A stretch of 64,000 bases of DNA from Escherichia coli (GTDB taxonomy: Bacteria; Pseudomonadota; Gammaproteobacteria; Enterobacterales; Enterobacteriaceae): the NCBI RefSeq assembly GCF_003790525.1, contig NZ_CP033635.1. One strand, 5' to 3'. Numbering within the stretch: the stretch's first letter is position 1; every line of letters starts with the position of its first letter. The translations under genes were made by a program, and so were the position numbers. The notes beneath the pieces are model-generated. The model made no database searches, was not told where the DNA came from, and saw only the letters and a program-made list of their open reading frames with translations. Positions 1,339-16,241 of the stretch are shown here, piece by piece.

Positions 1339-1349
1339 GAGTACCTCTC

Positions 1350-1838
1350 ATGATGATGATTTACGGCATGTTTGTTTTTGAGTTGCGTACGCTGCCTCAT
1401 CAACAACTGCAACATAATAAAACCTGGCGCCACGTTAAAAATGAACGCATCAATCGTTCGGCCAGCTGGCAGTATATCGGGGCGGGTGACGACCAGATCA
1501 CGTTGTCCGGTGTGCTTTATCCCGAAATTACCGGCGGTGAGGTTTCCCTCAGCCTTTTAACGACGCAGGCTTACACTGGTCGCCCATGGCCGCTGATTGA
1601 CGGTGTGGGGCAGATATACGGCATGTATGTGATAACGGCTGTCCGCACAACGCGAAGCGAACTTGACCGCCACGGTAAGGCCAAAAAAATTGAGTTCACT
1701 GTCAGTCTGGAACGCTGTGATGAGGATTTGCGGGAGAGTATGGCCTCGTCGCCGGTGTCTGATATGCTTTCGGGAATGAAAGGGAAGTTAAGTTCGGTCT
1801 GGAATACCACAGTAAGCGGCGTAAATGATCTGATGTGA
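1350..1838 (+). CDS. phage tail protein U (P2 gpU-like)
   Basis: 162-aa ORF; N-terminal MMMIYGMFVFELRT... and WRHVKNERINRSASWQYIGAGDDQITLSG resemble P2 GpU family; directly follows the tape-measure gene. Confidence 0.75.
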   Translation: MMMIYGMFVFELRTLPHQQLQHNKTWRHVKNERINRSASWQYIGAGDDQITLSGVLYPEITGGEVSLSLLTTQAYTGRPWPLIDGVGQIYGMYVITAVRTTRSELDRHGKAKKIEFTVSLERCDEDLRESMASSPVSDMLSGMKGKLSSVWNTTVSGVNDLM

Positions 1839-1845
1839 AGGTAAT

Positions 1846-1865
1846 GTGCCGCATTCTTGCGGCAC
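1846..1865. terminator. 8-bp stem hairpin (GTGCCGCA-TTCT-TGCGGCAC) between convergent gpU and tail fibre assembly genes
   Basis: Perfect inverted repeat read directly in the 70-bp gap between the two convergent stop codons; no strong U-tract. Confidence 0.4.
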
Positions 1866-1908
1866 CTGCATGATGAATTATTTATGAATGCCCGTTCCTT
1901 TTCCCCGC

Positions 1909-2520
1909 TCATTCCATTTCTGGTGGTGTTTCCGGCCAGCTTATTTCAGGCTCCGTGCTGATATCCAGTGCGTTCAGCTCGTCGATATAATCCAGCACGG
2001 CATTCAGTTTTGCCGTTTCTTCTGGTGTCAGACTGCGACCTGCCCGCAACTTAAGGTTGATGAGGTCGATGGACTTCATCGCCTGATCCACCCGTTCCTT
2101 GCGTTGCTGTCTGGCAACCTCCAGCTCTTCGGCTTGCTGCCGTTCTGTATCGGTTACCCACGCCTCACCGTTCCAGGTATCCCATGGTGTGGCAGGCTGT
2201 TTTGTCGTTGTCCCTTCCGGGTAGTCACCTGGTTGGGTAATCTGGACCGGATTACCGTTCTCTGTGCTGTATACCGTCTCTCCACGATGATCGGGGACAT
2301 ACTCCCACCCGTCCAGCGTGGACGTCCGGCAAATCACGTAACCCGGCATTGCCTCTGGCGGGGCATCGGCGCATGAATGTGCCGGGGTACCCACCCCCAG
2401 GGCGAGATACTCCACAGAGGATGAGGTGTATTCCCGGGTTTCCTCATCATAGTGATATACAGTGATATCGCCTGCGAAAGTGGCGATACCGTTTTCATCC
2501 AGAACTGCAGTGTTACTCAT
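1909..2520 (-). CDS. phage tail fibre assembly protein (P2 gpG-like)
   Basis: 203-aa ORF immediately downstream of the tail fibre gene, start overlapping its stop; typical size and position. Confidence 0.75.
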   Translation of the reverse strand: MSNTAVLDENGIATFAGDITVYHYDEETREYTSSSVEYLALGVGTPAHSCADAPPEAMPGYVICRTSTLDGWEYVPDHRGETVYSTENGNPVQITQPGDYPEGTTTKQPATPWDTWNGEAWVTDTERQQAEELEVARQQRKERVDQAMKSIDLINLKLRAGRSLTPEETAKLNAVLDYIDELNALDISTEPEISWPETPPEME

Positions 2521-4754
2521 TAAACTGCCCTCACAATATAATTAAAAGCGATATTGCGCGGTCTGATCGCTATCCATCTGTCTTTTTCATTACTCACCAG
2601 CTTACCGGCTCTGGCTATTGCCCATCTGTCAACTGGTTTTGTGCCGTACAGGATGCCGTTACCGGTTCTGGGTTGATCAGGGGTTATGTTTATGATGTCG
2701 TTATCATGTGATGCAAATGAAATCCCTGCCTGAATATCTGCACCTCCCGCTACGCCGTGGTACGCCTGTATGGCGGTACAAATATATGTTGCTTCCTGTG
2801 TGGATAACAATAAGCGTCCCCTGTCAATCATTCGCAGGTCATCCCATCCACGAATAAATTCCCCGCGCAAATCTGGTAGCCTGAGGTCAGGGTAGGCCAC
2901 CGCCAGTTTTGGGTATTTTGTACGCGTGAATGCGGCACCGTTGCACTGTAACCACCCCTCAGGTGGTCTTGACGAAGGCCACGGAACGGGTACGCCAACT
3001 GGCAGCGTCGAGCCTTCTCCTAAACCAAAGTAATCAAGAATATCTTTTATGCTTTGTTTACCCATGATGACGCGGGCAACAGACGAAAAAACAGGGGCGT
3101 CTGTGATCTGAGCCCAGCGATGAGTGTGGGCTGCCGAGGCTTTGCTGTTGGCAAGGTCATACGCAGCTTTAACAGCTTTTGGTGTGGCCGCCAGCGTTTC
3201 GGAATTGCTGTTTGTGGCGCTGCTTAGCTGTACGATGCCTTTGCGTCCGGTGGTTGCATCCTGTCCTGTATACTTGCTCGTCAGCATATCGTGTAAGGCT
3301 TTAACCGCTTTGGGGGTGGCGGCCTCAGTCTCTGACTCACTGTTTGTGGCACTGCTCAGCTGTACGGTGCCTTTTGCCGTCAGCGAGGCTGATGGCACAC
3401 CTGTTATCTGATTCCACGGGTGGGTGTGGCTGGCGGGTGCTTTACCGGCTGCAAGGTCATATGCAGCCTTGACGGCTCTTGGTGTGGCCGCCAGCGTTTC
3501 GGAATTGCTGTTTGTATCGCTGCTCAGCTGTACGATGCCTTTGCGTCCAGTTGTTGCATCTGTGTTTGTCACCTCCACCCACTCTGACCATGGGCCGTTA
3601 CCGTTAAAGTTTCCGGTAACTGTCCTGATAAATTTTCGTGGCGGATCCCAGCTCGTGTATTCATGCTGGCAGAATCCCCATGCACCAACACGGATGCGTA
3701 ACTCTCCTGCCTTCTCTACAGGATAGTTTCTGTCTGTTCTCGCACCTGAGTCACTCTGCTGGTAATAATCTCCCGCGTCTTCCTTACGCCCCAGAGTGTT
3801 CAGGTCTGTTTCCCCCAGGGATGTTGTTGGCTTCACGAACGCCATGCTCAGTGCATCACTTACTGCCTTCGGTGTGGCCGCCAGTGTTTCGGAATTGCTG
3901 TTTGTGGCGCTGCTCAGCTGTACGATGCCTTTGCGTCCGGTGGTTGCATCCTGTCCTGTATACTTGCTCGTCACCATATCGTGTAAGGCTTTAACCGCTT
4001 TGGGGGTGGCCGCCTCAGTCTCTGACTCACTGTTTGTGGCACTGCTCAGCTGTACGGTGCCTTTTGCCGTCAGCGAGGCTGATGGCACACCAGTTATCTG
4101 ATTCCACGGGTGGGTGTGGCTGGCGGCTGCTTTACCGGCTGCAAGGTCATATGCAGCCTTGACGGCCTTCGGTGTGGCGGCCAGTGTTTCAGAGGTGCTG
4201 TTTGTGGCGCTGCTCAGTTGGGTGAATCCTTTTTCTGTCAGTGTCGCGTCAGGGTGGTTACGGGAACGTGCGTGTTCCGCCATTTTCTCATCAATGTAGT
4301 CCGTGGTCGGCAGAATTGTTGTTGTGTCCATGACCAGTTCCACCACGGCGTCGGAGGTGACGGTGATTACTGCACGGAATATCTGCGCCCGCCCTGAACC
4401 TTCCTCTCTGGTGGGCTTGTAACTTTCAGCGGTATTTCCTACTGCAATCATTGTACCTGTATCATCAAACACACCAATTTCACGCACCCAGAATCCGCCG
4501 GTTTCAGGAGGAATGACCAGTTCGGCGATGAGGCGGTTCGGGTTCTCCGGGTCGGTGAAGACGCGGTTGACAGACTGGCGCCAAACCTCATTGTAAAGCG
4601 ATGTCTGGTTTTTCTGCGGCTGACGAAGCTCTCCATTGCCGTCCCCTACAGCCATGTGCGTAAGGCGTACAGGTCTACCGCCAGGCGCCGTTGTTGCGGC
4701 CAGCTTTGCCAGCCCGATGTCGGTGATAAGGGTTCTGAATTTTCTCGTGCTCAT
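2520..4754 (-). CDS. phage tail fibre protein (P2 gpH-like) with multiple internal repeats
   Basis: 744-aa ORF; motif TGRKGIVQLSSATNS(N/E)SET(L/E)AATPKAVK repeated at least 6 times (phage tail fibre repeat); position between baseplate I and assembly gene. Confidence 0.85.
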   Translation of the reverse strand: MSTRKFRTLITDIGLAKLAATTAPGGRPVRLTHMAVGDGNGELRQPQKNQTSLYNEVWRQSVNRVFTDPENPNRLIAELVIPPETGGFWVREIGVFDDTGTMIAVGNTAESYKPTREEGSGRAQIFRAVITVTSDAVVELVMDTTTILPTTDYIDEKMAEHARSRNHPDATLTEKGFTQLSSATNSTSETLAATPKAVKAAYDLAAGKAAASHTHPWNQITGVPSASLTAKGTVQLSSATNSESETEAATPKAVKALHDMVTSKYTGQDATTGRKGIVQLSSATNSNSETLAATPKAVSDALSMAFVKPTTSLGETDLNTLGRKEDAGDYYQQSDSGARTDRNYPVEKAGELRIRVGAWGFCQHEYTSWDPPRKFIRTVTGNFNGNGPWSEWVEVTNTDATTGRKGIVQLSSDTNSNSETLAATPRAVKAAYDLAAGKAPASHTHPWNQITGVPSASLTAKGTVQLSSATNSESETEAATPKAVKALHDMLTSKYTGQDATTGRKGIVQLSSATNSNSETLAATPKAVKAAYDLANSKASAAHTHRWAQITDAPVFSSVARVIMGKQSIKDILDYFGLGEGSTLPVGVPVPWPSSRPPEGWLQCNGAAFTRTKYPKLAVAYPDLRLPDLRGEFIRGWDDLRMIDRGRLLLSTQEATYICTAIQAYHGVAGGADIQAGISFASHDNDIINITPDQPRTGNGILYGTKPVDRWAIARAGKLVSNEKDRWIAIRPRNIAFNYIVRAV
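3181..3480. repeat. ~300-bp direct repeat unit, copy 1, inside tail fibre gene
   Basis: Near-identical to 3871-4170 (690 bp downstream) by direct comparison of the sequence lines; partial further copies begin at 3481 and 4171. Confidence 0.8.
3871..4170. repeat. ~300-bp direct repeat unit, copy 2, inside tail fibre gene
   Basis: Near-identical to 3181-3480; only a few substitutions seen. Confidence 0.8.
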
Positions 4755-4757
4755 GGT

Positions 4758-5321
4758 TCAGTCTTCCGGGTAAATGGTGATGATGTCGCCGTCGTAACCT
4801 GCGGCAGCGGCGTAAATGGCACCGTGTATTTCCTGGATGATACTAAGCCCCACGAGGTGGCGGCTGACGGGGCGCGCATCGGCAATCAGACGCTCCATTT
4901 CTTCATGCAGCTCTTCACTTACTCCGGTTTCAAGTGTGCCAATCTCAATGGTGAAGGTCCCGGGCGAGCCGTCAAACTCCCACCATTCTGATACACGGAT
5001 GAGGTAGCCCAGTGGTTCAACGATGCGGCGGAGTGCACTGATGGTCCCTTTGTGGCGATGTATCATCCATGCGTCCCGAATCACCTGTCGCCTGGTCTCT
5101 TCCGGCCAGTTGCGGTCCCAGCTGTCAACGGAACATGCCCATGCAAGGTAGGGCAGGAGGTGAGCAGGGCAGCGGTCCGGCGACCACAGGGTGTCGGCGT
5201 CCACCGGTATGGTACTGATGCGTACTCCTGTCGCCTCTGTGGCGCGCATGAATGGCCCTGCGGACGGTGGAAGCAGTGATGTACTGTGCTGTGCGCTGTC
5301 TGTTTTTTTCCTGTCACTCAT
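4758..5321 (-). CDS. phage baseplate/tail protein I (P2 gpI-like)
   Basis: ORF 4758-5375; start placed at internal Met (MSDRKK...) next to the J stop; position between J and tail fibre as in P2. Confidence 0.7.
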   Translation of the reverse strand: MSDRKKTDSAQHSTSLLPPSAGPFMRATEATGVRISTIPVDADTLWSPDRCPAHLLPYLAWACSVDSWDRNWPEETRRQVIRDAWMIHRHKGTISALRRIVEPLGYLIRVSEWWEFDGSPGTFTIEIGTLETGVSEELHEEMERLIADARPVSRHLVGLSIIQEIHGAIYAAAAGYDGDIITIYPED

Positions 5322-6210
5322 TGCGTCCTCCTTCGCTGATGCTGAATGTGGTACATCTGGCTGCCTGAGTGTCACTGATGGTGATGTTCTGCGTGGGTTT
5401 TATGACCTCAACGCGCTGGACACCGTGAACATGCAGCGCTGCAGTGATGGCTGACAGGGCCACGTCCTGACCGATACGGCCCTGGTCTGCCAGCCATGCA
5501 CGGAAAGCGGCGTCAGCGGCCGCAAGCATGGGTTCAGACTCCGGCCCTGGATAAAAATACAGCTTCGCTTCCATTACCCAGTTCACGATGGTAGCACTCT
5601 GCACAGTCAGGCGGTCGGCAACCGGGCGCACGTTCTCGGCATTCAGGGCGGTGCGCACCGTGTTCAGTAACGCCTCACCGGCGGTGCCGTCACCGTCTGC
5701 TGACAGGATGGAGACGGTGACTGTGGCCGGTGACGGGCTGATGGCGCGCGCATCACGGACAAGACCGCTTGCGCTCCGGGCAAAATACTCATACGCGCCG
5801 GACGGTCCGGCCACACTCAGGCCGTCCCAGGCTGACTGGGCACGCAGACGCAGCGATGTGTCGCTTTCCATCACTGCTTCCGTGGTATCAGTGGCCGGAT
5901 GAATGACCAGGCGGCGGGTGTTGTTGTTGGCGGCCAGATTGTCCAGGTCACTGCCCCGGCTGTGGCTGAGCATGCAGGCGCGGGCGGCTTCATTGATGCG
6001 CTGGCGAAGCAGCATTTCACGAAAGGCCATGGCCTGGGAAATGATGTTCAATGGCTCGGATTCCAGAGTAAGGGCACGGGTGACGGCGGCGCGGTATTCT
6101 TCCGGGAAGGAGCTCACCATCATGGTTTTAATGTCTGCCAGGATGGACTCAAAATCCGGCTGCGCGATGATGGCCGGTTCCGGTAACTGTGACAGGTCAA
6201 CGGAAGGCAT
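5314..6210 (-). CDS. phage baseplate assembly protein J (P2 gpJ-like)
   Basis: 298-aa ORF (P2 J is about 300 aa); position between W and I. Confidence 0.8.
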   Translation of the reverse strand: MPSVDLSQLPEPAIIAQPDFESILADIKTMMVSSFPEEYRAAVTRALTLESEPLNIISQAMAFREMLLRQRINEAARACMLSHSRGSDLDNLAANNNTRRLVIHPATDTTEAVMESDTSLRLRAQSAWDGLSVAGPSGAYEYFARSASGLVRDARAISPSPATVTVSILSADGDGTAGEALLNTVRTALNAENVRPVADRLTVQSATIVNWVMEAKLYFYPGPESEPMLAAADAAFRAWLADQGRIGQDVALSAITAALHVHGVQRVEVIKPTQNITISDTQAARCTTFSISEGGRNE

Positions 6211-6213
6211 GAT

Positions 6214-6564
6214 TTACTCCCTCAGGGTGATACTGAATGTGATGTTCTGCATGGTTTCGGTGATGATGCCGGATAACGTCACCACGGCGCGTCCGCCAGC
6301 CCGCCAGTTCACATCGACGTTCTGCAGTGCTATACGGGGTTCATGGCGCGCCAGCGCAGTCACCGTGGCGCTCATGCACTGTAAACGCGTGGTGTCGTTC
6401 ATGGGCTCGTCGATGAGGTCCGGTAACAGGCTGCCGTATTCGCGGCGCATCACCCGGCTGCCTGGCGGTGTGGTCAGGATATCCCGCACGCTGTTTTTCA
6501 GGTGTTCGCTGTCGCTCAGCGTGCCGGTTCCCTGCGGGTTCATCCCCCTGTAAACAGCGGTCAT
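6214..6564 (-). CDS. phage baseplate protein W (gpW/gp25-like)
   Basis: ORF 6214-6729; start placed at internal Met (MTAVYRGM...) giving ~116 aa, overlapping the V stop; P2 synteny. Confidence 0.75.
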   Translation of the reverse strand: MTAVYRGMNPQGTGTLSDSEHLKNSVRDILTTPPGSRVMRREYGSLLPDLIDEPMNDTTRLQCMSATVTALARHEPRIALQNVDVNWRAGGRAVVTLSGIITETMQNITFSITLRE

Positions 6565-7142
6565 TGCGGGCCTCCCGTGGTGCCCGGGCCCGTCCTGACG
6601 CCACCGTGGGTGTGCGTATGAACGGTGATACCGTTGGATGTCAGGCTGCCGCCGCTGTGGGATATGCTGCCGCGCATCTCGCCGCCGTTCTGCACCTCCA
6701 GGGTGGCGGTGATAAGTTTGCGGGTACACACCACCTCCGACGTGTCCAGGGTGATGCGCGTGTCGGCCTGAATGCTGGCTGTTTTAATCCCCTTAACCTC
6801 CAGTGCACCGGCGTCTGCATCGTAGCGGAATACCGCACCGTCCGGTGCTGTCATGATGATTTCCTTCAGTGTGCTGCCCGGTGCCGGGATATCATCGCTC
6901 CAGAGGCTGCCGATGATTATCGCGGTTTCGGGATTACCACCGATACAGACGAACGCCACCTGTTCACCGGTGGCTGGCGGCACCCAGACACTGAACGCGC
7001 CCGCCCGCGCGGTGCTCCAGCGAAGCCAGCCTGTCTCCAGTCCGCCACTGCGCACCCGGACCTCCCAGGTCTGCGGGTTCACGTCGAAAATCACGCCGGT
7101 TCTGATGATGTTGCTGATAAGGCGCATTAATTCCGCGTTCAT
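6561..7142 (-). CDS. phage baseplate assembly protein V (spike, P2 gpV-like)
   Basis: 193-aa ORF; Gly-rich C-terminus; between S and W. Confidence 0.75.
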   Translation of the reverse strand: MNAELMRLISNIIRTGVIFDVNPQTWEVRVRSGGLETGWLRWSTARAGAFSVWVPPATGEQVAFVCIGGNPETAIIIGSLWSDDIPAPGSTLKEIIMTAPDGAVFRYDADAGALEVKGIKTASIQADTRITLDTSEVVCTRKLITATLEVQNGGEMRGSISHSGGSLTSNGITVHTHTHGGVRTGPGTTGGPQ

Positions 7143-7795
7143 GCCACAGCCCTCGCGATATTGTCCATAATGATACGCTGAATAAGTCGTTCATCTGCCG
7201 GTGTTATTCCAAGAAGTTCACGGGCCGGATAATCCGTATACATCCCTGCGGCCACCCGGTCGCGCTCCCCGAACTGGTGAACGCGGGCAATGCGTGCCGC
7301 CACGCCGCTGTAGCCCACCGTCACGCCTGATGCGTCCGCCTTCACTTTCAGATAACGGGCCGTGCGCAGCTTCGCAAACATCGGCACCGTTTTTGTGGTG
7401 TCACGGTTGATGCGGCGTGTCCTGATTTCAAGGAAACGGAGGATATCACTCCGGTAAAAGGTACGTATGCCGCTCCGGTCTTCATCCCAGCCGGTGATGG
7501 TCTGGCCGTATTTTCCTGAACCGTGATGCCAGTTTTTCAGGGTGCGGTTCTGGTTTTGCCAGATAAAGCTGATGCGCTCCTGAAGGCGTGATATACGGCG
7601 TTTACGGCGTGTCCACACCGAACCGTCCGGCGCTTTCTGGGCGCGCATCCGGCTCTGGTTCACGCGCCGCAGCTCCTTACCCACATGCGCGGCAATGCGC
7701 TTCACTGCCTGCGGGCTGGTTGCCAGCCGGATATTGACAAACATGTTACTCATTCCTTCAGCGGGAACGAGGTTACGGTATCTCAGTTTCCCCAT
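7139..7795 (-). CDS. phage virion morphogenesis / tail completion protein (P2 gpS-like); start uncertain
   Basis: ORF 218 aa, longer than P2 S; internal Met candidates near 7753; position between R and V. Confidence 0.65.
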   Translation of the reverse strand: MGKLRYRNLVPAEGMSNMFVNIRLATSPQAVKRIAAHVGKELRRVNQSRMRAQKAPDGSVWTRRKRRISRLQERISFIWQNQNRTLKNWHHGSGKYGQTITGWDEDRSGIRTFYRSDILRFLEIRTRRINRDTTKTVPMFAKLRTARYLKVKADASGVTVGYSGVAARIARVHQFGERDRVAAGMYTDYPARELLGITPADERLIQRIIMDNIARAVA

Positions 7796-7810
7796 AACAT
7801 TCTCCGCGTG

Positions 7811-8275
7811 TTATCCGGTGACAATGTTCCACGTCACATCCTCCAGAATGTGTGACCAGTCGCCGTCCTGCGGGATGCGTGATTTCGGCTCCGGTAGATG
7901 TTCTGTCATGAGGGTGCCGTCATCCCTGCGGGTGACGCGCACGCGTTCACGTAACGGCAGCTCAAACAGCACGTCCGCGCTGTCGTCGTCGTTAATGGCC
8001 GCCGTGAACTGAATATCGTTGTTGCGCTCAGGATTAAGCAGCAACTGCGGCTGGTTCTCTGCCAGCCAGACAATCAGTGGAAGCGTCAGGTTGTCCAGAT
8101 CGCCCGTGTAGTCCATCACGAACATCACCAGCCGGTAGTTGTACACGAACGTCGGCGTCTCGCCGGTGGTCTCTATCCCGCCACGTTCAATGAACACGGT
8201 GAACTTTTCCGGGTTGGCCCTGCACCACCGGCACGCTGTACTCATGTGTGTGCTCAGGGATTTACTTTTCAGCAT
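7811..8275 (-). CDS. phage tail completion protein (P2 gpR-like)
   Basis: ORF 7811-8359; start at internal Met gives ~154 aa, matching gpR size; position after the lysis cassette. Confidence 0.7.
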   Translation of the reverse strand: MLKSKSLSTHMSTACRWCRANPEKFTVFIERGGIETTGETPTFVYNYRLVMFVMDYTGDLDNLTLPLIVWLAENQPQLLLNPERNNDIQFTAAINDDDSADVLFELPLRERVRVTRRDDGTLMTEHLPEPKSRIPQDGDWSHILEDVTWNIVTG

Positions 8276-8576
8276 GCGCCTCTCCGTTCTGTCGGTTGAG
8301 TCTCCGGCGCTCCATCGCCTCAATGGCCCGTTTGTCTGCGTTGCAGGTTTCCAGTGCATCCAGGAGGCTGTCGCTCCATATCCCGATATTTCCCCAGGTG
8401 GGGTGTTCAGGGAAGGGCGGGGGCCGTGTTCCCGTCGTCAGTCCCGCCGGAATGAACCGGAAGGAGGGCGCGGGCAGTGGCGCGTTCCGTGTGTTCGCGC
8501 AGCCGGTCAGTAAAACGGTGGTCAGGAAGAGTGCCGGCGCACTCATCCGTCGCAGCAATTTCGCGAAGCTGTTCAC
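8262..8576 (-). CDS. o-spanin lipoprotein (Rz1/LysC-like)
   Basis: Signal peptide with lipobox LLTGC; Pro-rich; embedded out of frame in the 3' part of the i-spanin gene. Confidence 0.65.
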   Translation of the reverse strand: MNSFAKLLRRMSAPALFLTTVLLTGCANTRNAPLPAPSFRFIPAGLTTGTRPPPFPEHPTWGNIGIWSDSLLDALETCNADKRAIEAMERRRLNRQNGEAHAEK

Positions 8577-8814
8577 GTCTGACTTCTCCTTCCTGTGCCC
8601 TTTTCTGTCGCTGCGTCATCACCTCATGCAGTACGGCGGAGGCATCGCTGATAACGGCGGAGGACTCACGCAGCGCCCGGCTGTATTCGCCCAGCTGCTG
8701 CTCTGCGGCGTCACGTGCCTCACCGGCACGCCCCAGCCGGTATGACTGCCACATGGCCGCCGCCGTCAGGGTGGTCACCATGAGGGCAACAATCACGGCG
8801 TAAACCGGTCTCAT
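8407..8814 (-). CDS. i-spanin (Rz/LysB-like)
   Basis: N-terminal TM segment (AVIVALMVTTLTAAAMW) followed by charged helical region; immediately downstream of endolysin; overlaps the o-spanin gene. Confidence 0.65.
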   Translation of the reverse strand: MRPVYAVIVALMVTTLTAAAMWQSYRLGRAGEARDAAEQQLGEYSRALRESSAVISDASAVLHEVMTQRQKRAQEGEVRREQLREIAATDECAGTLPDHRFTDRLREHTERATARALLPVHSGGTDDGNTAPALP

Positions 8815-9356
8815 GTGCTGCCTCCCGTGTCGCGAAGACACCACTGTCTGAACTCCTCCCGGCGGTTAACCAGCCCCTGTGAGCGGCGTCCGCCACTGTT
8901 GACAAAATCGGTCAGTCTCCCGCACATCGCCACCCAGCGGTGCGCCTGTGCGTGCTTCCAGATGGTGGTGCGCTGCCGGTTGCCGCTCCTGTCCCGGTAC
9001 CACATCAGGCCGGTACAGCCGACGTTGAACGCCGCGTCGGTCATCGCCTCAAAGGCGGACTGGGGCATGGCGGCACCGCTGAAGTTCTGGTTGATACAGT
9101 TTTCCGCGTGCCGCAGGTCATTCACCCAGCGGCGGGCCACCTCCTTTTCTCCGTAAACCCGGTTCTCCACGCCCCCTGTTGAACCACATCCCACGGTCAT
9201 TACTCCTGCAATATCACGGTACGGTGTCGCCCGGCACTCTTCCCGGGTGGCGATTTTTATCTGTGCTTCCCGTGAGGTTCTCAGTTCACCGGGTGCCATG
9301 GAGACGCCCAGCGCCACAATGGCCGCCACCGCATAACGTTTTACCGGCAGTTTCAC
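8811..9356 (-). CDS. phage endolysin (lysozyme-type), possibly with N-terminal signal-anchor-release segment
   Basis: 181-aa ORF between holin and spanins; Gly/Ala-rich hydrophobic N-terminus (AVAAIVALGVSMAPG). Confidence 0.75.
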   Translation of the reverse strand: MKLPVKRYAVAAIVALGVSMAPGELRTSREAQIKIATREECRATPYRDIAGVMTVGCGSTGGVENRVYGEKEVARRWVNDLRHAENCINQNFSGAAMPQSAFEAMTDAAFNVGCTGLMWYRDRSGNRQRTTIWKHAQAHRWVAMCGRLTDFVNSGGRRSQGLVNRREEFRQWCLRDTGGST

Positions 9357-9643
9357 CGCTCTTCTCCGTCCTGTCTCACGCTGTCCAGTGCCCGTCTCTC
9401 ACCGTCGTGAAGCTCGCGGTTTTCTGAACGTGCCAGGATGCGGGCGATAAGGTCATTGCGGCGCTTCATTGCCTGCTCCGTACGCCTGCGGTGGCACCAG
9501 GCATGGATGGCGGAAAGTGACCCCAGAAGCAGCCCGGCCAGCGCAATTTTTTCGCTGATGGTCATAACACCAATGGTTGTTGCCGTCACTGACGCCCAGA
9601 AGGTGATCCAGTCACTGACGCGCTGAAAAAATCCCGTCACCAT
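9353..9643 (-). CDS. phage holin
   Basis: 96-aa protein with hydrophobic segments and charged C-terminus; directly upstream of endolysin. Confidence 0.65.
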   Translation of the reverse strand: MVTGFFQRVSDWITFWASVTATTIGVMTISEKIALAGLLLGSLSAIHAWCHRRRTEQAMKRRNDLIARILARSENRELHDGERRALDSVRQDGEER

Positions 9644-9834
9644 AGCTTTACCTTTTCGCGTTGCTGTTTCCTTTCCGGCTCCGGCATCTCCACCTCCTGT
9701 CCCGCTTCCAGAATTACCTGGCGGCAGAGCCCTGGATTGGCATCAAGTACCTGTGCGGTCACCCCCTGCGTGGTGCCGTAGTGCCGGAAACAGAGTAAAT
9801 CGACGGTATCCCCCTGGAGTGCCCTCACTTTCAT
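9637..9834 (-). CDS. phage tail protein X (P2 gpX-like, LysM-type)
   Basis: ORF 9637-9903; internal Met start (MKVRALQGDTV...) gives ~65 aa; position between L and holin. Confidence 0.65.
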   Translation of the reverse strand: MKVRALQGDTVDLLCFRHYGTTQGVTAQVLDANPGLCRQVILEAGQEVEMPEPERKQQREKVKLW

Positions 9835-10328
9835 CACACCAGCTCCGCAAAAAGACGGGGGCGACCCAGAATATCTGCCACGGACCAGCGCACATCGCGC
9901 CATAAGTCTTCCATCTGCTCATCCAGTGCGTCAGCCCGGCGGTCCCCCTTGTCGGTGGTGTCCACATCCCGCCAGCGTTCCAGAATCAGGGCGCGGGTGG
10001 CGCTGTAGACGGCGTTGCGGTAATGCCATACGTTGACGCTCTCACCGTTGATGGTGGCGGCAGGCACTTCTGCGAGGATGCTGAACCCTGCGGCAGACTG
10101 CGCCTTCTGCCACTCTTCCAGCTCCCGCGTGACGTGAGCCACGGCTCCCGTGGCAACGTGCGCCAGACGTGTGGAGGTGATGCGGCCCGGCAGGCGTACT
10201 GCAAGGCGCAGCTCCCGCAGCACAATCTCCGGCCAGAATGCCCCGGCGGTGATGGTGGCGTCGCCGTCGTCGGTGTCGGGGATATCGTCCCGTGCAGGGG
10301 CGGCTTCCGGTCTTGCGACCATGCTCAT
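9834..10328 (-). CDS. phage head completion/stabilisation protein (P2 gpL-like)
   Basis: ORF 9834-10406; start at internal Met; position after small terminase M. Confidence 0.7.
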   Translation of the reverse strand: MSMVARPEAAPARDDIPDTDDGDATITAGAFWPEIVLRELRLAVRLPGRITSTRLAHVATGAVAHVTRELEEWQKAQSAAGFSILAEVPAATINGESVNVWHYRNAVYSATRALILERWRDVDTTDKGDRRADALDEQMEDLWRDVRWSVADILGRPRLFAELV

Positions 10329-10430
10329 AAATCGCTCCTTCAGAAAAAAAGGCGGTGGGTGCCGGGTGTAAGGGGAACGGAAAACCGTAACCGGAACGCC
10401 CGGCACGCCGCCTTCTGACGGGGTCAGCCG

Positions 10431-11207
10431 TTAACCACGTTTCGCCTTCGCTTTCGCCTTCGGCGTCGTGGTCTGTTCTCTGGTTGTATCTTTCTGTGCC
10501 GCAGGCTCCTGTGCGGCAGCGGCTTCATCCTGTCCGGCCTTTTTCAGGGCCCGTGAAAGCGTGGCAATCTCACGTTTTACCCCCGCATTCGGGTTAAGGT
10601 GCATTGCCTCACGGAACAGCTTCAGACTCACCGCCATGCTGTCGGCATCGGTCAGGCCACGACGGGCAAAGGCGCATGCCTTGCACAGCTTGGCGCGGAC
10701 CTCATCGGGCATGTCCCGGTTCGCGACAATTTGCCAGAGGGTGTCCAGCGGTTCGATGTAGCCGGACAAATCGGCGTGTGCATCCGTTCCGGCCTGTGTC
10801 AGAACAGGGTTGCAGATTTCCTCGGTCAGTACCGTGGCTGCCGTACGCCCGAAGTTGTCAGGCATCGTGAGGTTGTGGCGAACCACATAATCCCCGATGC
10901 GCAGTGCAAGCGCCAGGTCGCCACAGTCCACGGCCCACACCATGAGTGTGGCTATCACCTCATCCTGCTGTCCGCCGTCGGCTTCCAGCGTGCCGTCTAT
11001 CCAGCCTGCAAAACCCGGCAGCATTTCACGCTTGAGCGCGGCCTTTGCCGCTTTTGCCTGGACGCCCTTTATGCGTTGCTGTGCCAGGCGCAGACGGTGA
11101 AGGACCTGCTCATGAGCCGTGCGGGCCACGATATCCTCGTTTTCTGCTGCCGTTCCTGCCCGTAAAGCCATCACGTGCTGGAAATGAGCCTGTGCCGGTG
11201 TCAGCAT
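10431..11207 (-). CDS. phage terminase endonuclease (small) subunit (P2 gpM-like)
   Basis: 258-aa ORF following the major capsid gene; basic Lys/Ala-rich C-terminus. Confidence 0.75.
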   Translation of the reverse strand: MLTPAQAHFQHVMALRAGTAAENEDIVARTAHEQVLHRLRLAQQRIKGVQAKAAKAALKREMLPGFAGWIDGTLEADGGQQDEVIATLMVWAVDCGDLALALRIGDYVVRHNLTMPDNFGRTAATVLTEEICNPVLTQAGTDAHADLSGYIEPLDTLWQIVANRDMPDEVRAKLCKACAFARRGLTDADSMAVSLKLFREAMHLNPNAGVKREIATLSRALKKAGQDEAAAAQEPAAQKDTTREQTTTPKAKAKAKRG

Positions 11208-11209
11208 GG

Positions 11210-12349
11210 TTAATCCTCCTCTTCCCCTGCATCCTTGTCTTCAGCCTGCGCTGACAGTGCTTTTATGCCCTCCCGGTACCAGTCCGGCGCGTCATGGTCA
11301 TATTCGGCAAAGCTGATATTCTCAATCAGTGCGCACTTACCATGGTCCTCAACCACATAGCAGTCGTTAACGGACTGATAGATGGCGATACGGTTGTATT
11401 CGGGCTCATCCTTCATGAGACGACGCATGGACCCCTTCTGCCAGTAAACCGACAGGTTGCTGAATGAGGTGATGAGCATTGACTGAGCCGGGAAAAATGG
11501 CGCAAGGTACACATCAAGGTCGCCAATGGTCCGCGTTGACACAATGAGCTGTCCGGCAAGCAGTTCGGCATTCGCATTCTGCATGCTGATACTGTTCAGG
11601 ACCGGCAGGCGCAGGGAGTTAAAGAGGTTTCGCCCCATGATGACAACGAGGTCGTCTGCGTCCTTGTGCCATTCGTCAAGCAGGGATGAGCGTGCATCCT
11701 GGACCAGTGCATCGGGATTGGCGTATCTGCCTGTGTATGCCACCGAATTGTCCATATTGCGCGCAGTCAGCATCACGTCTTTCATGACGCGTTGCGGGGC
11801 CTGGTCCCTGATATCCTGCAGCCACCCCTTATTGACGTCCTCAAGTCGCGGGTGTTTTTTTATATCCGAGACTTCCGCATGGTGCGTACCGTTAAAACCT
11901 GTCATGATGCGATCAAGTGCCACCTGTCTGGCAATCTGGCGACTCACACGCAGCTGGAAGTCAGGGTGTCCGGCCCACATGTCAAGCTGAGGGTAGGAGA
12001 TGAAGGTGTCGTAGTTCACCTGCTCGCACTCATAGCGTCGCGCTTTCATGTCCACCACATTCAGCGGGTTACGACGATTTGTACCGTCATAACTGCTGTT
12101 CGTGCGCGCAACCGGCCCGGTGGTGTCCAGGAGTACCTTTTCACCTTTCTGCTCTGTCACACCAATGCTGTTGGCTTTCTGAAGAAAATCATGGCTTTCC
12201 TTTGATGCGTTTTCAAATCTCTGCTGCACTGCCGGCTGTACCGAAAAGCGGGAGGAGAGCGCAGATATCGTGATGTTATTCATCTCCGCCTGTTGTGCCT
12301 GGTAAGCAAAAAGCTCGGCCCGCGCGGCATCGCTCATGATCAGATTCAT
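11210..12349 (-). CDS. phage major capsid protein (P2 gpN-like)
   Basis: 379-aa ORF between scaffold and terminase M. Confidence 0.8.
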   Translation of the reverse strand: MNLIMSDAARAELFAYQAQQAEMNNITISALSSRFSVQPAVQQRFENASKESHDFLQKANSIGVTEQKGEKVLLDTTGPVARTNSSYDGTNRRNPLNVVDMKARRYECEQVNYDTFISYPQLDMWAGHPDFQLRVSRQIARQVALDRIMTGFNGTHHAEVSDIKKHPRLEDVNKGWLQDIRDQAPQRVMKDVMLTARNMDNSVAYTGRYANPDALVQDARSSLLDEWHKDADDLVVIMGRNLFNSLRLPVLNSISMQNANAELLAGQLIVSTRTIGDLDVYLAPFFPAQSMLITSFSNLSVYWQKGSMRRLMKDEPEYNRIAIYQSVNDCYVVEDHGKCALIENISFAEYDHDAPDWYREGIKALSAQAEDKDAGEEED

Positions 12350-12377
12350 CGGTTATCACCTCTTGTGGTTATTTCTG

Positions 12378-13214
12378 TCAGTAGTCAGCCAGTTGTCTGG
12401 ACTGCCCGCCGGTTGCCGTAAAACGACTTTCCTGATCAGCGTCCAGTCCGCGCAGTCTGTTTTTCAGCTCTGCCAGCTCAGTGGACAGGGTGGCGATTTT
12501 CTGTCTGTCTGCCTGATGGCGCGATTCCAGTGCACTGAAGCGGTCGAGAAGGTCGGCATGCGATGAGGCTATCCCCTCAACGGCGTCATGAATGCGGGAG
12601 AACCGGGTGTCGTCAGCCCTGCGTCCTCGCCCAATCATGTTCATCACGCGGTTAAGCCACTGCGCACCTTCCTCGCTGCGGCGCTCCGTCAGTTCGATCA
12701 CTTCAGCCTCAATGGCGTCAGAGAACATCGGTGCTTCCGTCTGCTGATTATTGAAGGTCATGACCGAACGGCGCTGCTGCAGGGCGAACTGAAGACGCTC
12801 CGTGCCGATGCTTGCCGGGGTGTCTGTCATGGCAAGGCCAATAAGATACGGGGTGCCCGTAGGGGTGAAATTTCGTGCCAGCTCAATACTGGAGTAAATT
12901 TTCTTACCCCGGGAGACCAGATTTTTCATGCGGTCGGTGGGTTCGATTTCCGCATACAGCGCAGTACGACCGACCAGCGGACCTTCGGTGATTTCTTCTG
13001 TGCTCAGTGCCGTCACATCACCCATGGCGGAAAATTCACTGGACGGAACCGGTGAAAGCCAGTGCTCCACGTTCACGCGTGCGCCGTAAATCTCAGGGTT
13101 GAAGTTACTGGCCGCCGCGCGCAAATCTGCGGCACTGATTTCGCGACCGTCTGCGGTGGGACCGGAAACGGCCACGCGGAATGTTTTACGGGATGTTTTT
13201 TTCTGTTCAGGCAT
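12378..13214 (-). CDS. phage capsid scaffolding protein (P2 gpO-like)
   Basis: ORF 12378-13355; start at internal Met (MPEQKKTSRK...) gives ~279 aa; divergent from terminase gene as in P2. Confidence 0.8.
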   Translation of the reverse strand: MPEQKKTSRKTFRVAVSGPTADGREISAADLRAAASNFNPEIYGARVNVEHWLSPVPSSEFSAMGDVTALSTEEITEGPLVGRTALYAEIEPTDRMKNLVSRGKKIYSSIELARNFTPTGTPYLIGLAMTDTPASIGTERLQFALQQRRSVMTFNNQQTEAPMFSDAIEAEVIELTERRSEEGAQWLNRVMNMIGRGRRADDTRFSRIHDAVEGIASSHADLLDRFSALESRHQADRQKIATLSTELAELKNRLRGLDADQESRFTATGGQSRQLADY

Positions 13215-13285
13215 TGTCGGGCCCTCGTGATGATCGTTTGTCTCATGATGGCAAAACGGGGCAGGGACAGACAAAGTGCGTTTGT

Positions 13286-13303
13286 TGTAAGCGAATGCCG
13301 ACA
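13286..13303. promoter_or_regulatory. TGT-N12-ACA dyad in the O/P divergent late promoter region (possible Ogr-type activator site)
   Basis: TGTAAGCGAATGCCGACA read directly, ~66 bp upstream of the P start; P2 late promoters are known to carry this dyad. Confidence 0.3.
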
Positions 13304-13368
13304 ACACCGGGCATGGCAGGAGGCCTGTAAGGGGTGAGTAAACTGCCTGAATCACATGAGGGGGAGAA

Positions 13369-15120
13369 ATGATTCAGGATACATTTGTTCGCCAGCGGGC
13401 ACGCCAGCTGTACTGGCAGGGTTACCCTGTTGCGGAAATTTCCCGCCTTATGGGTATCAACCAGAACACGATCCATTCGTGGAAAAAACGCGACCAGTGG
13501 GATGAGACGCCCCCGGTTCAGCGTGTCACGCAGTCCATGGATGCGCGACTCATTCAGCTCACGGAAAAACAGAATAAAACAGGCGGGGACTTTAAGGAAA
13601 TTGATTTGCTGACCCGTCAGCTTAAAAAGCTGCATGACGGTCTGCCGGATGAGACGGCAACAGGAAAGAAAGGCCGGGCGAAAAAACACAAAAATCATTT
13701 CACGCCGGAACAGATCGCGGCGCTGCGGGAAAAAATTACCGACAGGCTGGCCGGACACCAGCGCAAATGGCTTGATGCTATCGGTGCCTGTGAGCGTGCC
13801 GGAATTACTGACAGGATGATCCTGAAATCCCGCCAGATTGGGGCGACCTGGTATTTTGCGCAGGAAGCGCTGCTGATGGCGCTGCGTGACGATGTGGCAC
13901 AACCTTACCAGCGTAACCAGATTTTTTTGTCTGCGTCTCGTCGTCAGGCGCTCCAGTTTAAAAGCATTATTCAGAAGGCTGCATCTGAAGTTGATGTGGA
14001 ACTGAAAGGGGGCGATAAAGTCATCCTCTCCAACGGTGCAGAGCTGCATTTTCTCGGCACTTCTGCGGCCACCGCGCAAGCGTACACAGGGAATCTGTAT
14101 TTTGATGAGTTTTTCTGGACGGGGCGTTTCGCAGAGCTGCGCAAGGTGGCTGCTGCTATGGCAACGCTGGATGGTTTGCGGTGTACCTATTTTTCCACGC
14201 CATCAAGTGAAACACATGAGGCGTATGCATACTGGAACGGCGATCACTGGAATGAAGGGCTTCGTACTCATAAACGTCAGCATTTTGATGTGAGCTGGAA
14301 TGCGCTTCATAACGGCCTTATCTGTCCTGACTATATCTGGCGGCAAATTGTGACGCTGGAAGATGTGGTCAGTCAGGGATGGACGTTAACCAACATTGAC
14401 AAAATCCGGCGCAATAACACTGAAGACGAGTTCCGCAATCTCTACATGTGTGAATTTGCTCGCGAAGGGGAATCGGCATTTAACCTGAATATCCTGATTG
14501 GCTGCGGTGTTGACGGATACGACGAGTGGCCGGACTGGAAGCCGTTTGCACCGCGTCCGATGGGGAACCGCCCTGTGTGGATTGGGTACGACGCCAACGG
14601 CAGTAGCGGGAACGGTGACAGCGGGGCGGTTGTCGTGGTGGTGCCGCCAGCCGTACCGGGCGGGCGTTTTCGCACCGTGGAGACGCGGCGGGTGCAGGGG
14701 CTGGAGTTTGAGGCGCAGGCGAAGGTGATTGAAGAGTTCACCTTTCGCTATAACGTTGAGCATATCGGTATTGACGTAACCGGCGGTCACGGGGATGCGG
14801 TGTATCAGATTGTGAAGCGCTTTTTTCCGGCAGCCATTCCCTACACCTTCACCCTGTCATCAAAGCGCACGCTGGTTCTGAAGATGCTGCAGCTCATGCG
14901 CGCCGGGCGGTGGGAGTACGACCGCAGCGAGCGCGAACTGGTGAGCGCCTTTAACGCGGTACGCAAAACAAAAACGCAGGCCGGATTTATCACCTACGAA
15001 ACAGATCGCGCAAGAGGCGTAAGCCATGGCGATCTTGCATGGGCCACCATGCTGGCCGTTATCAACGAACCTGTCGGCGGTGAACATGATGCCGCCCCCT
15101 TCAGTGTTACGGAGTTCTGA
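13369..15120 (+). CDS. phage terminase large (ATPase) subunit (P2 gpP-like)
   Basis: 583-aa ORF, divergent from O, followed by portal gene. Confidence 0.85.
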   Translation: MIQDTFVRQRARQLYWQGYPVAEISRLMGINQNTIHSWKKRDQWDETPPVQRVTQSMDARLIQLTEKQNKTGGDFKEIDLLTRQLKKLHDGLPDETATGKKGRAKKHKNHFTPEQIAALREKITDRLAGHQRKWLDAIGACERAGITDRMILKSRQIGATWYFAQEALLMALRDDVAQPYQRNQIFLSASRRQALQFKSIIQKAASEVDVELKGGDKVILSNGAELHFLGTSAATAQAYTGNLYFDEFFWTGRFAELRKVAAAMATLDGLRCTYFSTPSSETHEAYAYWNGDHWNEGLRTHKRQHFDVSWNALHNGLICPDYIWRQIVTLEDVVSQGWTLTNIDKIRRNNTEDEFRNLYMCEFAREGESAFNLNILIGCGVDGYDEWPDWKPFAPRPMGNRPVWIGYDANGSSGNGDSGAVVVVVPPAVPGGRFRTVETRRVQGLEFEAQAKVIEEFTFRYNVEHIGIDVTGGHGDAVYQIVKRFFPAAIPYTFTLSSKRTLVLKMLQLMRAGRWEYDRSERELVSAFNAVRKTKTQAGFITYETDRARGVSHGDLAWATMLAVINEPVGGEHDAAPFSVTEF

Positions 15121-16175: not shown

Positions 16176-16202
16176 CGCGCTTCGCTTGTCTGCTGCTTCG
16201 CC

Positions 16203-16225: not shown

Positions 16226-16241
16226 GACTCTCCAGCTCTGC

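What the first reader, a model, noticed from the sequence alone, without database searches (positions are those of the whole stretch)
8262..9643. Lysis cassette: possible SAR-type endolysin with overlapping spanin pair and no lysA-like gene
The endolysin N-terminus is a Gly/Ala-rich weakly hydrophobic segment, compatible with a signal-anchor-release endolysin exported without holin lesions. The o-spanin lipoprotein gene is embedded out of frame in the i-spanin gene, and no gene occupies the P2 lysA position. These are known arrangements but refine the annotation.
Basis: inference. Interest (0 to 1): 0.25.

Follow-up and report, generated by a model that had tools for sequence, protein, structure and literature searches.

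The report
Prophage lysis genes with membrane-tethered lysozyme

Summary
Window 8262-9643 (minus strand) is a real lysis cassette in a P2-like (Peduoviridae) prophage of E. coli. It encodes a holin (9353-9643), an endolysin (8811-9356), an i-spanin (8407-8814) and an o-spanin (8262-8576). It lies between tail genes X and R.

The endolysin is a GH24 lysozyme (E39-x8-D48-x5-T54). Its closest solved relative is P1 Lyz, the prototype SAR endolysin, and the match runs through the N-terminal segment. That segment (K2,K6,R7 then Y8-G23, 50% Gly/Ala/Ser) fits a SAR anchor. Its only AXA-like cleavage site is followed by a nearly invariant Pro.

No lysA-like gene exists: the endolysin stop and the i-spanin start share ATGA. 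P2 Y, K, lysA, lysB and lysC find nothing in the window by tblastn.

One correction: the o-spanin gene is overlapped, not embedded. It runs 145 nt past the i-spanin stop.

Additions:
- The holin has two TMDs and is remotely related to the phage 21 pinholin family.
- RefSeq starts the lysozyme at M20, deleting the SAR segment.
- This endolysin belongs to a clade nested in the P1 Lyz family that has lost the SAR Cys and the catalytic Cys (now Asp) and gained Cys57.

The arrangement is already described in the literature. SAR behaviour is inferred, not shown.

The parts
9353..9643 (-). Holin, 96 aa, class II (two TMDs: W12-I29 and I33-W49; basic C-terminal tail). Probable pinholin.
   Evidence: PHROG 1350 'holin' 7e-23 and PHROG 20 'holin' 4.7e-6. 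Phage 21 S hits PHROG 20 at 1e-32 and P2 Y hits PHROG 175. Weak Pfam hit to the HP1 holin family, 8e-4, below cutoff. TMD1 is 53% Gly/Ala/Ser/Thr. G37 and G41 (GxxxG) are invariant in 9 homologues. The ATG overlaps the X stop; the TGA overlaps the endolysin GTG (GTGA).
8811..9356 (-). Endolysin, 181 aa, GH24 lysozyme of the P1 Lyz family with an N-terminal SAR-type segment.
   Evidence: Pfam PF00959 1.4e-21. PDB 1XJT (P1 Lyz) 7e-36. AF2 model against 1XJT: TM 0.89. GTG start with a GGAG 8 nt upstream.
9288..9335 (-). Codons for Y8-G23, the uncharged, weakly hydrophobic segment (YAVAAIVALGVSMAPG). It is preceded by K2, K6 and R7 and followed by E24.
   Evidence: 8 of 16 residues are Ala/Gly/Ser; KD15 maximum 1.91, against 2.24 for the i-spanin TMD. 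L16 and P22 are at least 90% conserved. S19-M20-A21 is followed by P22 at +1; Pro at +1 blocks signal peptidase I (PMC8385771).
9186..9242 (-). Catalytic region: E39 (9240-9242), C41 (9234-9236), D48 (9213-9215), T54 (9195-9197), C57 (9186-9188).
   Evidence: E-x8-D-x5-T read from the sequence. The Y8/C41/D48/C57 combination against C8/C41/C48/[ILM]57 is shown.
8407..8814 (-). i-spanin, 135 aa: N-terminal TMD (V4-W22), periplasmic domain, one Cys.
   Evidence: PHROG 214 'Rz-like spanin' 1.3e-25. The ATG has a GGGAGG upstream and overlaps the endolysin stop as ATGA. PGAP calls the same start.
8262..8576 (-). o-spanin, 104-aa precursor: signal peptide MNSFAKLLRRMSAPALFLTTVLLTG, lipobox Cys26 with Ala at +2, Pro-rich mature part with one further Cys. 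It lies in the +1 frame of the i-spanin gene and is overlapped, not embedded.
   Evidence: Pfam LysC PF23793 4.6e-13. PHROG 456 at 9e-17, aligned from residue 2; P2 LysC is also in PHROG 456. The GTG has an AAGGAG upstream. It extends 145 nt past the i-spanin stop.
9637..9834 (-). Tail gene X (context: upstream boundary of the cassette).
   Evidence: Pfam Phage_tail_X 4e-20. 48% identity to P2 X. PGAP start.
7811..8275 (-). Tail completion gene R (context: downstream boundary). Its start overlaps the o-spanin end by 14 nt.
   Evidence: Pfam P2_Phage_GpR 3.7e-38. 36% identity to P2 R.

Best explanation
This is the late-operon lysis cassette of a P2-like prophage of E. coli. The P2 holin, endolysin and antiholin set (Y-K-lysA) has been replaced by an unrelated pair: a two-TMD holin of the phage 21/HP1 type and a SAR endolysin of the P1 Lyz family. 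A LysB/LysC-type overlapped two-component spanin is kept.

Proposed mechanism; every step is inferred from homology.
1. The endolysin is exported by Sec. It stays tethered to the inner membrane, inactive, by its uncleaved, weakly hydrophobic N-terminal segment.
2. The holin accumulates, then triggers and depolarises the membrane. It probably does this through small pinholes formed by TMD2, which carries an invariant GxxxG.
3. The SAR segment leaves the bilayer and packs against the catalytic domain, as in active P1 Lyz. The lysozyme (E39/D48/T54) then degrades the murein.
4. The i-spanin/o-spanin complex disrupts the outer membrane.

No antiholin is recognisable: there is no lysA and no dual-start motif.

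Unlike P1 Lyz, this enzyme cannot use the Cys13/Cys44/Cys51 thiol switch. It has Tyr in place of the SAR Cys and Asp in place of the catalytic Cys. Its control should therefore be non-covalent, by tethering and refolding as in R21. The retained C41 is probably paired with the newly acquired C57.
For: Gene identities.

SAR reading:
- P1 Lyz is the best solved homologue, and the alignment enters the SAR segment.
- The AF2 model matches active P1 Lyz (1XJT) at TM 0.89 and rmsd 2.0 over 178 columns, against 0.58 for the inactive form. The N-terminal helix has pLDDT 97.
- The N-terminal segment is conserved in 42 homologues from many enterobacterial genera. In 28 of them it carries the Cys that P1 Lyz needs for activation, so it must be retained in the mature protein.
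- P22 at +1 of the only AXA-like site is at least 90% conserved. Pro at +1 blocks cleavage (PMC8385771).

Holin:
- PHROG 1350 and PHROG 20; phage 21 S is also in PHROG 20, while P2 Y is in PHROG 175.
- G37 and G41 are invariant.
- SAR endolysin genes typically sit in one operon with their pinholin (PMC9025707).

Cassette swap: P2 X and R match the window, but P2 Y, K, lysA, lysB and lysC give no tblastn hit.

Same layout elsewhere: Enterobacter phage phiT5282H, including an unannotated overlapped o-spanin, and Klebsiella phage KP12 (PMC9902359).

Thiol-switch loss: 15 of 43 family members are Y8/C41/D48/C57, 28 of 43 are C8/C41/C48/[ILM]57, and there are no intermediates. The former group is monophyletic and nested in the latter.
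Against: No experiment and no dedicated signal-peptide or TM predictor was available.

The hydrophobic stretch is short: 14-16 residues, against about 20 in P1 Lyz and R21. It has an n-h-c layout with Ser-Met-Ala at -3 to -1, so it looks like a Sec signal peptide apart from the +1 Pro. T4 RI is a precedent for a 'SAR domain' that turned out to be cleavable (PMC8385771).

Pinholin status rests on remote family membership (E = 5e-6) and on motifs. SAR endolysins can also work with large-hole holins, as P1 Lyz does with LydA and LydC.

The C41-C57 disulfide could not be checked, because model coordinates are not returned. A rough estimate of beta-hairpin register leaves the distance uncertain.

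The three-site co-variation within the close family is one inherited event, not many.
Confidence: 0.75

Rival explanations
1. The N-terminal segment is a cleavable Sec signal peptide. The lysozyme would be secreted as a soluble periplasmic enzyme and held in check by the energised membrane, like Lys44 of phage fOg44. There would be no signal-anchor-release step.
For: The hydrophobic core is short (Y8-A21). The layout is a classic n-h-c with S19-M20-A21 at -3 to -1. The Y8 clade no longer needs the segment for a thiol switch. T4 RI was long misread as SAR and is in fact cleaved (PMC8385771).
Against: Pro at +1 is at least 90% conserved and blocks signal peptidase I. Sister sequences at 65-70% identity keep the same motif together with a functionally required Cys inside the segment. 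AF2 packs residues 10-20 into the fold at pLDDT 97, matching full-length active P1 Lyz.
Confidence: 0.12
2. The gene starts at the internal ATG (M20), as RefSeq annotates. It would then encode a canonical cytoplasmic endolysin that needs holin lesions to reach the wall.
For: PGAP calls the CDS from M20, giving 162 aa. ATG is a stronger start codon than GTG.
Against: Residue 20 is Leu, Ile or Phe in most of the 42 homologues, so it is not a conserved start. The 19 codons upstream are conserved as protein. The GTG has a GGAG 8 nt upstream and overlaps the holin stop as GTGA, whereas the M20 ATG has no clear Shine-Dalgarno and would leave a 53-nt gap. Other pipelines call the 181-aa form: P0001, with 139 member sequences.
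Confidence: 0.03
3. The endolysin is SAR-type, but the 96-aa holin forms large, non-specific holes rather than pinholes. Lysis timing and endolysin release would then follow the P1 LydA/Lyz pattern.
For: P1 Lyz works with the canonical holins LydA and LydC as well as a pinholin (PMC9025707). N4 gp61 is complemented by either hole type. The PHROG 20 match is weak (5e-6), and PHROG families mix functional types.
Against: The protein has two TMDs. TMD1 is rich in Thr, Ser, Ala and Gly, and TMD2 carries an invariant GxxxG. It is adjacent to and translationally coupled with a SAR endolysin. No soluble endolysin is encoded in the cassette.
Confidence: 0.25

Closest known systems
Phage P1 Lyz (prototype SAR endolysin; PDB 1XJT/1XJU)
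   Same: Same GH24 fold and family: 42% identity, E = 7e-36, AF2 model TM 0.89 to the active form. Both have an N-terminal basic and then weakly hydrophobic segment followed by an [LV]RT motif. Four other Cys are conserved: C87, C114, C145 and C173.
   Different: It lacks the SAR-domain Cys (Tyr8) and the catalytic Cys51 equivalent (Asp48), so the disulfide-isomerisation switch is impossible. It gains Cys57. Its hydrophobic segment is about 5 residues shorter. The roles of the P1 Cys residues are from my own knowledge of Xu et al. 2005, which was not readable here.
Phage 21 S21 pinholin / R21 SAR endolysin system
   Same: Both combine a two-TMD holin with a SAR lysozyme that has an E-x8-D-x5-T triad and no Cys in the SAR segment. 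The holin shares PHROG 20 with S21. The likely mode of control is the same: non-covalent, by tethering and refolding (summarises the mechanism classes).
   Different: The endolysin is only distantly related to R21 (E = 1e-4, TM 0.67). The holin has no dual-start antiholin. The phage 21 spanins are embedded; these are overlapped.
Phage P2 lysis cassette Y-K-lysA-lysB-lysC
   Same: Same genomic slot between X and R. Same overlapped +1-frame spanin architecture. The o-spanin is in the same PHROG (456) and Pfam (LysC) family, and the i-spanin is weakly linked through PHROG 214.
   Different: The holin is unrelated (P2 Y is a PHROG 175 holin). The endolysin is not detectably similar to P2 K by tblastn or PHROG family; K resembles lambda R by my recollection of the two sequences, which was not tested here. 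There is no lysA. None of the five P2 lysis proteins gives a tblastn hit.
Enterobacter phage phiT5282H (Peduoviridae, Novemvirus) and Klebsiella phage KP12 cassettes
   Same: phiT5282H has the same gene order X-holin-endolysin-i-spanin/o-spanin-R and no lysA. Identities to the window are holin 52%, endolysin 68% and R 63%. KP12 is published as a P2-type cassette with a P1-Lyz-like SAR endolysin and overlapped spanins (PMC9902359).
   Different: The phiT5282H endolysin keeps the P1-type Cys set (C8, C41, C48). Its i-spanin is only 24% identical. There is no DNA-level match to any phage record.

Membership tests
SAR (signal-anchor-release) endolysin | Muralytic catalytic domain with an intact active site | tested here: met
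   PF00959 at 1.4e-21. E39-x8-D48-x5-T54; E39 and T54 are invariant in 43 sequences.
SAR (signal-anchor-release) endolysin | N-terminal basic residues followed by a weakly hydrophobic TMD rich in Gly/Ala/Ser/Thr (the criterion used for Mu gp22, PMC9239132) | tested here: met
   K2, K6 and R7 precede Y8-G23, where 8 of 16 residues are Ala/Gly/Ser. KD15 is 1.91, lower than the i-spanin TMD at 2.24. Caveat: the stretch is only 14-16 residues.
SAR (signal-anchor-release) endolysin | The signal sequence is not cleaved by signal peptidase I | tested here: inconclusive
   The only AXA-like site (SMA) is followed by the conserved P22, and Pro at +1 blocks cleavage. AF2 packs the helix into the fold. 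No SignalP run and no experiment.
SAR (signal-anchor-release) endolysin | Sec-dependent export, inactive membrane-tethered form, release on depolarisation or by a pinholin (the 'definitive test' in PMC9239132) | not testable with these tools
   Needs fractionation, energy-poison and complementation assays.
P1 Lyz-type thiol-switch endolysin | A Cys in the SAR segment plus a catalytic Cys at E+9 and a Cys at E+2 (Cys13/Cys51/Cys44 in P1; own knowledge of Xu et al. 2005) | tested here: not met
   Tyr8 and Asp48 are present and only C41 (E+2) is kept. 28 of 43 relatives have all three. The protein is a homologue of the family, but this mechanism is excluded.
Two-component spanin, overlapped architecture | The i-spanin has an N-terminal TMD. 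The o-spanin has a lipobox and an outer-membrane sorting signal. The o-spanin gene starts inside the i-spanin gene in another frame and ends beyond it (PMC6139136). | tested here: met
   TMD V4-W22. Lipobox LLTG-C26 with Ala at +2. +1 frame; 170 nt shared and 145 nt beyond the i-spanin stop. PHROG 214 and 456, Pfam LysC.
Two-component spanin, embedded architecture (lambda Rz/Rz1) | The o-spanin gene lies wholly within the i-spanin gene | tested here: not met
   The o-spanin ends at 8262 and the i-spanin ends at 8407.
Pinholin (S21-like) | Two TMDs, a weakly hydrophobic TMD1 able to leave the membrane, and small-xxx-small motifs in TMD2 | tested here: met
   TMD1 (I13-I29) is 53% Gly/Ala/Ser/Thr. 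TMD2 has G37xxxG41xxxA45, with G37 and G41 invariant. These are sequence-level features only.
Pinholin (S21-like) | Homology to a proven pinholin | tested here: inconclusive
   Both the window holin (4.7e-6) and S21 (1.1e-32) hit PHROG 20. The best family for the window holin is PHROG 1350, which has no characterised member.
Pinholin (S21-like) | Forms nanometre-scale holes that depolarise the membrane but do not pass a soluble endolysin | not testable with these tools
   Needs complementation with lambda R or a similar assay.
P2 LysA-type antiholin | A multi-TMD protein encoded between the endolysin and lysB | tested here: not met
   The ATGA junction leaves no room for one. P2 LysA (PHROG 162) has a best tblastn E of 2 in the window.

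The most novel reading that the evidence does not exclude
The endolysin documents an evolutionary change of control mechanism inside one protein family. A clade nested among P1-Lyz-type thiol-switch enzymes has discarded the SAR Cys and the catalytic Cys (now Asp). It has also acquired Cys57, which pairs with the retained Cys41. The enzyme has thus moved from covalent (disulfide-isomerisation) control to non-covalent, R21-like control. The same combination (exported, no N-terminal Cys, Cys at E+2, Asp at E+9, Cys at T+3) appears in at least three separate lineages. Among the top 150 representatives examined, no exported GH24 enzyme has an unpartnered E+2 Cys, apart from fragmentary or N-terminally truncated entries (P0061, P0102). 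This suggests a general rule and convergent evolution.
Probability: 0.45. Interest if true: 0.4.

Novelty: new member of a known kind. Interest (0 to 1): 0.25.

Why it matters
The main value is in annotation. In RefSeq E. coli genomes carrying this prophage (28 of 5426 complete genomes):
- the lysozyme is started at M20, which removes the membrane segment that determines how lysis works;
- the holin and the i-spanin are 'hypothetical';
- the lysC start is wrong;
- holin homologues are named 'phage tail protein'.

Correct calls change the predicted lysis pathway from holin-endolysin to (pin)holin-SAR endolysin.

A secondary point concerns the endolysin clade. It offers a natural matched pair, at 65-70% identity, of thiol-switch and switch-free SAR lysozymes. 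Such a pair could be used to ask what the disulfide switch contributes to lysis timing and safety.

Tried and rejected
- Megablast of 7800-10000 against 50,697 phage records found no match. The prophage is known only from bacterial genomes at DNA level.
P2 K, Y, lysA, lysB and lysC give no tblastn hit, and K falls in different PHROG families.
- I looked for an antiholin. There is no lysA and no conserved dual-start motif in the holin. No TM-containing minus-strand ORF is nested in the cassette.
- The promoter/terminator scan of 6500-13500 showed nothing above shuffle expectation that bears on the cassette.
- A position-independent hydrophobicity sum (scale values from memory) ranked the N-terminal segment as marginal. 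It is too crude to separate a SAR segment from a signal peptide.
- I tried to read Kuty et al. 2010, Xu et al. 2004 and Sun et al. 2009 for the published classification of SAR endolysins. None is held, so I cannot say whether the Y/D/C subtype has been described.
- I tried to find a lysozyme coordinate file on the compute machine to measure the E+2 to T+3 distance. The search timed out, and AF2 coordinates are not returned.
- Pfam and PADLOC scans of the unannotated prophage ORFs near the portal gene found nothing.
Full report
**What is there.** All genes in 6.5-12.4 kb of the window are on the minus strand. They follow the P2 late-operon order: capsid N (11210-12349), M, L, X (9637-9834), four lysis genes, then R (7811-8275), S, V and so on. 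The finding's coordinates, 8262-9643, run exactly from the o-spanin stop to the holin start.

The four genes are tightly coupled:
- The X stop lies inside holin codons 2-3.
- The holin TGA overlaps the endolysin GTG (GTGA), with a GGAG 8 nt upstream.
- The endolysin TGA overlaps the i-spanin ATG (ATGA), with a GGGAGG upstream.
- The o-spanin GTG, preceded by AAGGAG, lies inside the i-spanin gene.
- The R start overlaps the o-spanin end by 14 nt.

Family searches identify each gene:

| Gene | Best family hits |
|---|---|
| Holin | PHROG 1350 holin, 7e-23 |
| Endolysin | Pfam Phage_lysozyme 1.4e-21; PHROG 7 endolysin 9e-48 |
| i-spanin | PHROG 214 Rz-like spanin, 1.3e-25 |
| o-spanin | Pfam LysC 4.6e-13; PHROG 456 at 9e-17 |

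This is far beyond chance.

**Source.** The 1.5-kb cassette is 100% identical to chromosomal prophages of E. coli. 28 of 5426 complete genomes have it, 25 of them nearly identical. Window 1-18700 is 99.87% identical to strain 135. The rest of the prophage is present: replication gene A, cox and integrase at 26683-27687, next to dmsA. No phage record matches at DNA level. The closest phage by protein is Enterobacter phage phiT5282H (Peduoviridae, Novemvirus), with endolysin 68%, holin 52% and R 63% identity.

**The endolysin.** The 181-aa product begins MKLPVKR-YAVAAIVALGVSMAPG-ELRT. It carries the lysozyme triad E39-x8-D48-x5-T54.
- Its best solved relative is P1 Lyz, the first SAR endolysin (1XJT, E = 7e-36). 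The alignment starts at residue 12, inside the N-terminal segment.
- An AF2 model built on 43 sequences is confident (pLDDT 91.7; residues 11-20 at 97). It matches 'active form of P1 Lyz' at TM 0.89 and rmsd 2.0 Å over 178 columns, against 0.58 for the 'secreted inactive form'. The N-terminal helix is therefore predicted to be part of the released, folded enzyme. That is expected of a SAR segment and not of a cleaved signal peptide.
- The composition fits the usual criterion (compare Mu gp22 in PMC9239132). Three basic residues are followed by 16 uncharged residues, half of them Ala, Gly or Ser. The segment is less hydrophobic than the i-spanin TMD next door.

**Signal peptide or SAR?** This is the serious rival. 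The hydrophobic core is short (14-16 residues) and is followed by Ser-Met-Ala, a plausible -3/-1 pair. T4 RI shows that a 'SAR domain' can turn out to be cleavable (PMC8385771). Three points argue against cleavage.
- The residue after that site is Pro22, at least 90% conserved in the family. Pro at +1 blocks signal peptidase I.
- 28 of 43 family members, some 65-70% identical and carrying the same motif, have a Cys inside the segment at the position P1 Lyz uses for activation. The segment must therefore persist in their mature proteins.
- The AF2 model packs the helix into the fold.

I put the rival at about 0.12.

**Start codon.** RefSeq starts this gene at M20 (MAPGELR..., 162 aa). The call is not credible.
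- Position 20 is Leu, Ile or Phe in most homologues, so it is not a conserved start.
- The upstream 19 codons are conserved as protein.
- The GTG has a Shine-Dalgarno and the stop/start overlap typical of this operon, whereas the ATG at M20 has neither.

Kongari et al. note that misidentified starts are a general problem for lysis proteins (PMC6139136).

**Holin.** The 96-aa protein has two hydrophobic segments (W12-I29 and I33-W49), joined by an invariant Ser-Glu-Lys, and a basic tail.
- TMD1 is 53% Thr/Ser/Ala/Gly.
- TMD2 carries G37xxxG41xxxA45, with both Gly invariant in nine homologues.
- It hits PHROG 20 (4.7e-6), the family that phage 21 S hits at 1e-32. P2 Y belongs to PHROG 175.
- It has no dual-start motif.

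A pinholin is therefore the best guess, at about 0.55-0.6. SAR endolysins also work with large-hole holins (P1 LydA/LydC; N4), so this is not settled. NCBI names some homologues 'phage tail protein'.

**Spanins.** The i-spanin (135 aa from the ATG) has an N-terminal TMD and one periplasmic Cys. The o-spanin precursor (104 aa from the GTG) has a basic n-region, the lipobox LLTG-C26, Ala at +2 (outer-membrane sorting), a Pro-rich mature part and one further Cys.

The o-spanin gene is in the +1 frame. It shares 170 nt with the i-spanin gene and runs 145 nt past its stop. By the definitions in PMC6139136 this is 'overlapped', the P2 type and the commonest of the three (228 of 528 systems). It is not 'embedded'. 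PGAP starts lysC at Leu18, which leaves a 7-residue signal. phiT5282H has the same overlapped o-spanin, unannotated (L001:3721-4089).

**No lysA.** The ATGA junction leaves no space for such a gene. No nested minus-strand ORF has a membrane segment. P2 LysA (PHROG 162) finds nothing in the window.

More broadly, P2 X and R match the window (48% and 36% identity), but none of P2 Y, K, lysA, lysB or lysC gives a tblastn hit. Only the spanins are linked to P2's through shared profile families. So the slot is conserved, the holin, endolysin and antiholin have been replaced, and the spanins have diverged beyond BLAST.

**An addition: the enzyme is in the P1 Lyz family but cannot use its switch.** In P1 Lyz, a SAR-domain Cys (C13) attacks a C44-C51 disulfide after release and frees the catalytic C51. 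This is from my own knowledge of Xu et al. 2005; the classes of mechanism are summarised in PMC4777826.

Among 43 aligned family members, 28 have all three Cys; these include P1 Lyz and phiT5282H. The other 15, including the window, have Tyr at the SAR position, Asp at the catalytic position, the E+2 Cys retained (C41) and a new Cys at T+3 (C57). There are no intermediates. With those columns and the N-terminus masked, the 15 form one clade nested in the thiol-switch family. This is one inherited event, but it has been maintained down to about 70% identity.

Among 50%-identity representatives, the same combination recurs in lineages only 34-36% identical to the query (P0071 with P0089, and P0135). 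Every exported enzyme with an E+2 Cys also has a potential partner: a SAR Cys or the T+3 Cys. The exceptions are the fragmentary P0061, the N-terminally truncated P0102, which still carries Cys at E+9, and P0063, which has Cys at E+5.

I infer a C41-C57 disulfide and non-covalent, R21-like control. I could not measure the distance, and I could not read Kuty et al. 2010 to see whether this subtype has been described.

**Comparison with the known, and verdict.** A P2-type cassette with a P1-Lyz-like SAR endolysin, a small holin and overlapped spanins is already published for Klebsiella phage KP12 (PMC9902359). It is also present in Novemvirus. The finding is correct apart from the word 'embedded', and it is ordinary. 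It is useful mainly as an annotation correction. The endolysin's loss of the thiol switch is a modest new point. Interest 0.25.

Noticed in passing
window 8811-9356 and 8262-8576 (RefSeq NZ_CP080260 = L003:9612-10100 and 9063-9326): PGAP starts the lysozyme at M20, deleting the N-terminal membrane segment, and starts lysC at Leu18, leaving a 7-residue signal. The holin and i-spanin are annotated 'hypothetical protein'.
   Followed up: yes
window 9353-9643; proteins P0202, P0203, P0207, P0209: Homologues of the holin are named 'phage tail protein' by NCBI and have no Pfam domain. This is probably a name propagated from the neighbouring gene X.
   Followed up: partly
window 9186-9335 (endolysin residues 8, 41, 48, 57): Three sites co-vary perfectly across 43 homologues: Y8/D48/C57 against C8/C48/[ILM]57, with C41 invariant. 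The window's type is a derived clade within the P1 Lyz thiol-switch family. The same pattern recurs in distant lineages.
   Followed up: yes
L001:3721-4089 (+) in Enterobacter phage phiT5282H (MG589387): This is an unannotated overlapped o-spanin gene (lipobox ...SVTAC). Its C-terminal half resembles the window's o-spanin. GenBank lists only a 30-aa ORF there.
   Followed up: partly
window 16242-16955 (-), and small ORFs at 17.2-18.8 kb: A 237-aa ORF lies directly beside the portal gene, followed by a stretch of short ORFs before replication gene A. None has a Pfam or PADLOC hit. From my own knowledge, P2-like phages often carry variable cargo or defence genes at this position.
   Followed up: partly
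window 3101-4217, inside the tail-fibre gene 2520-4754 (-): The gene carries internal direct repeats of about 357 bp (3172-3527 and 3862-4217) at about 95% identity. These were seen as off-diagonal BLAST hits against the strain 135 prophage.
   Followed up: no
window 22-1838 (+) versus 1909-4754 (-): The tape-measure and tail genes are on the plus strand and converge on the tail-fibre genes. In P2 these modules are co-linear. In E. coli strain 135 the tape-measure gene is annotated as pseudogene fragments, so the prophage may be tail-defective in some hosts.
   Followed up: no
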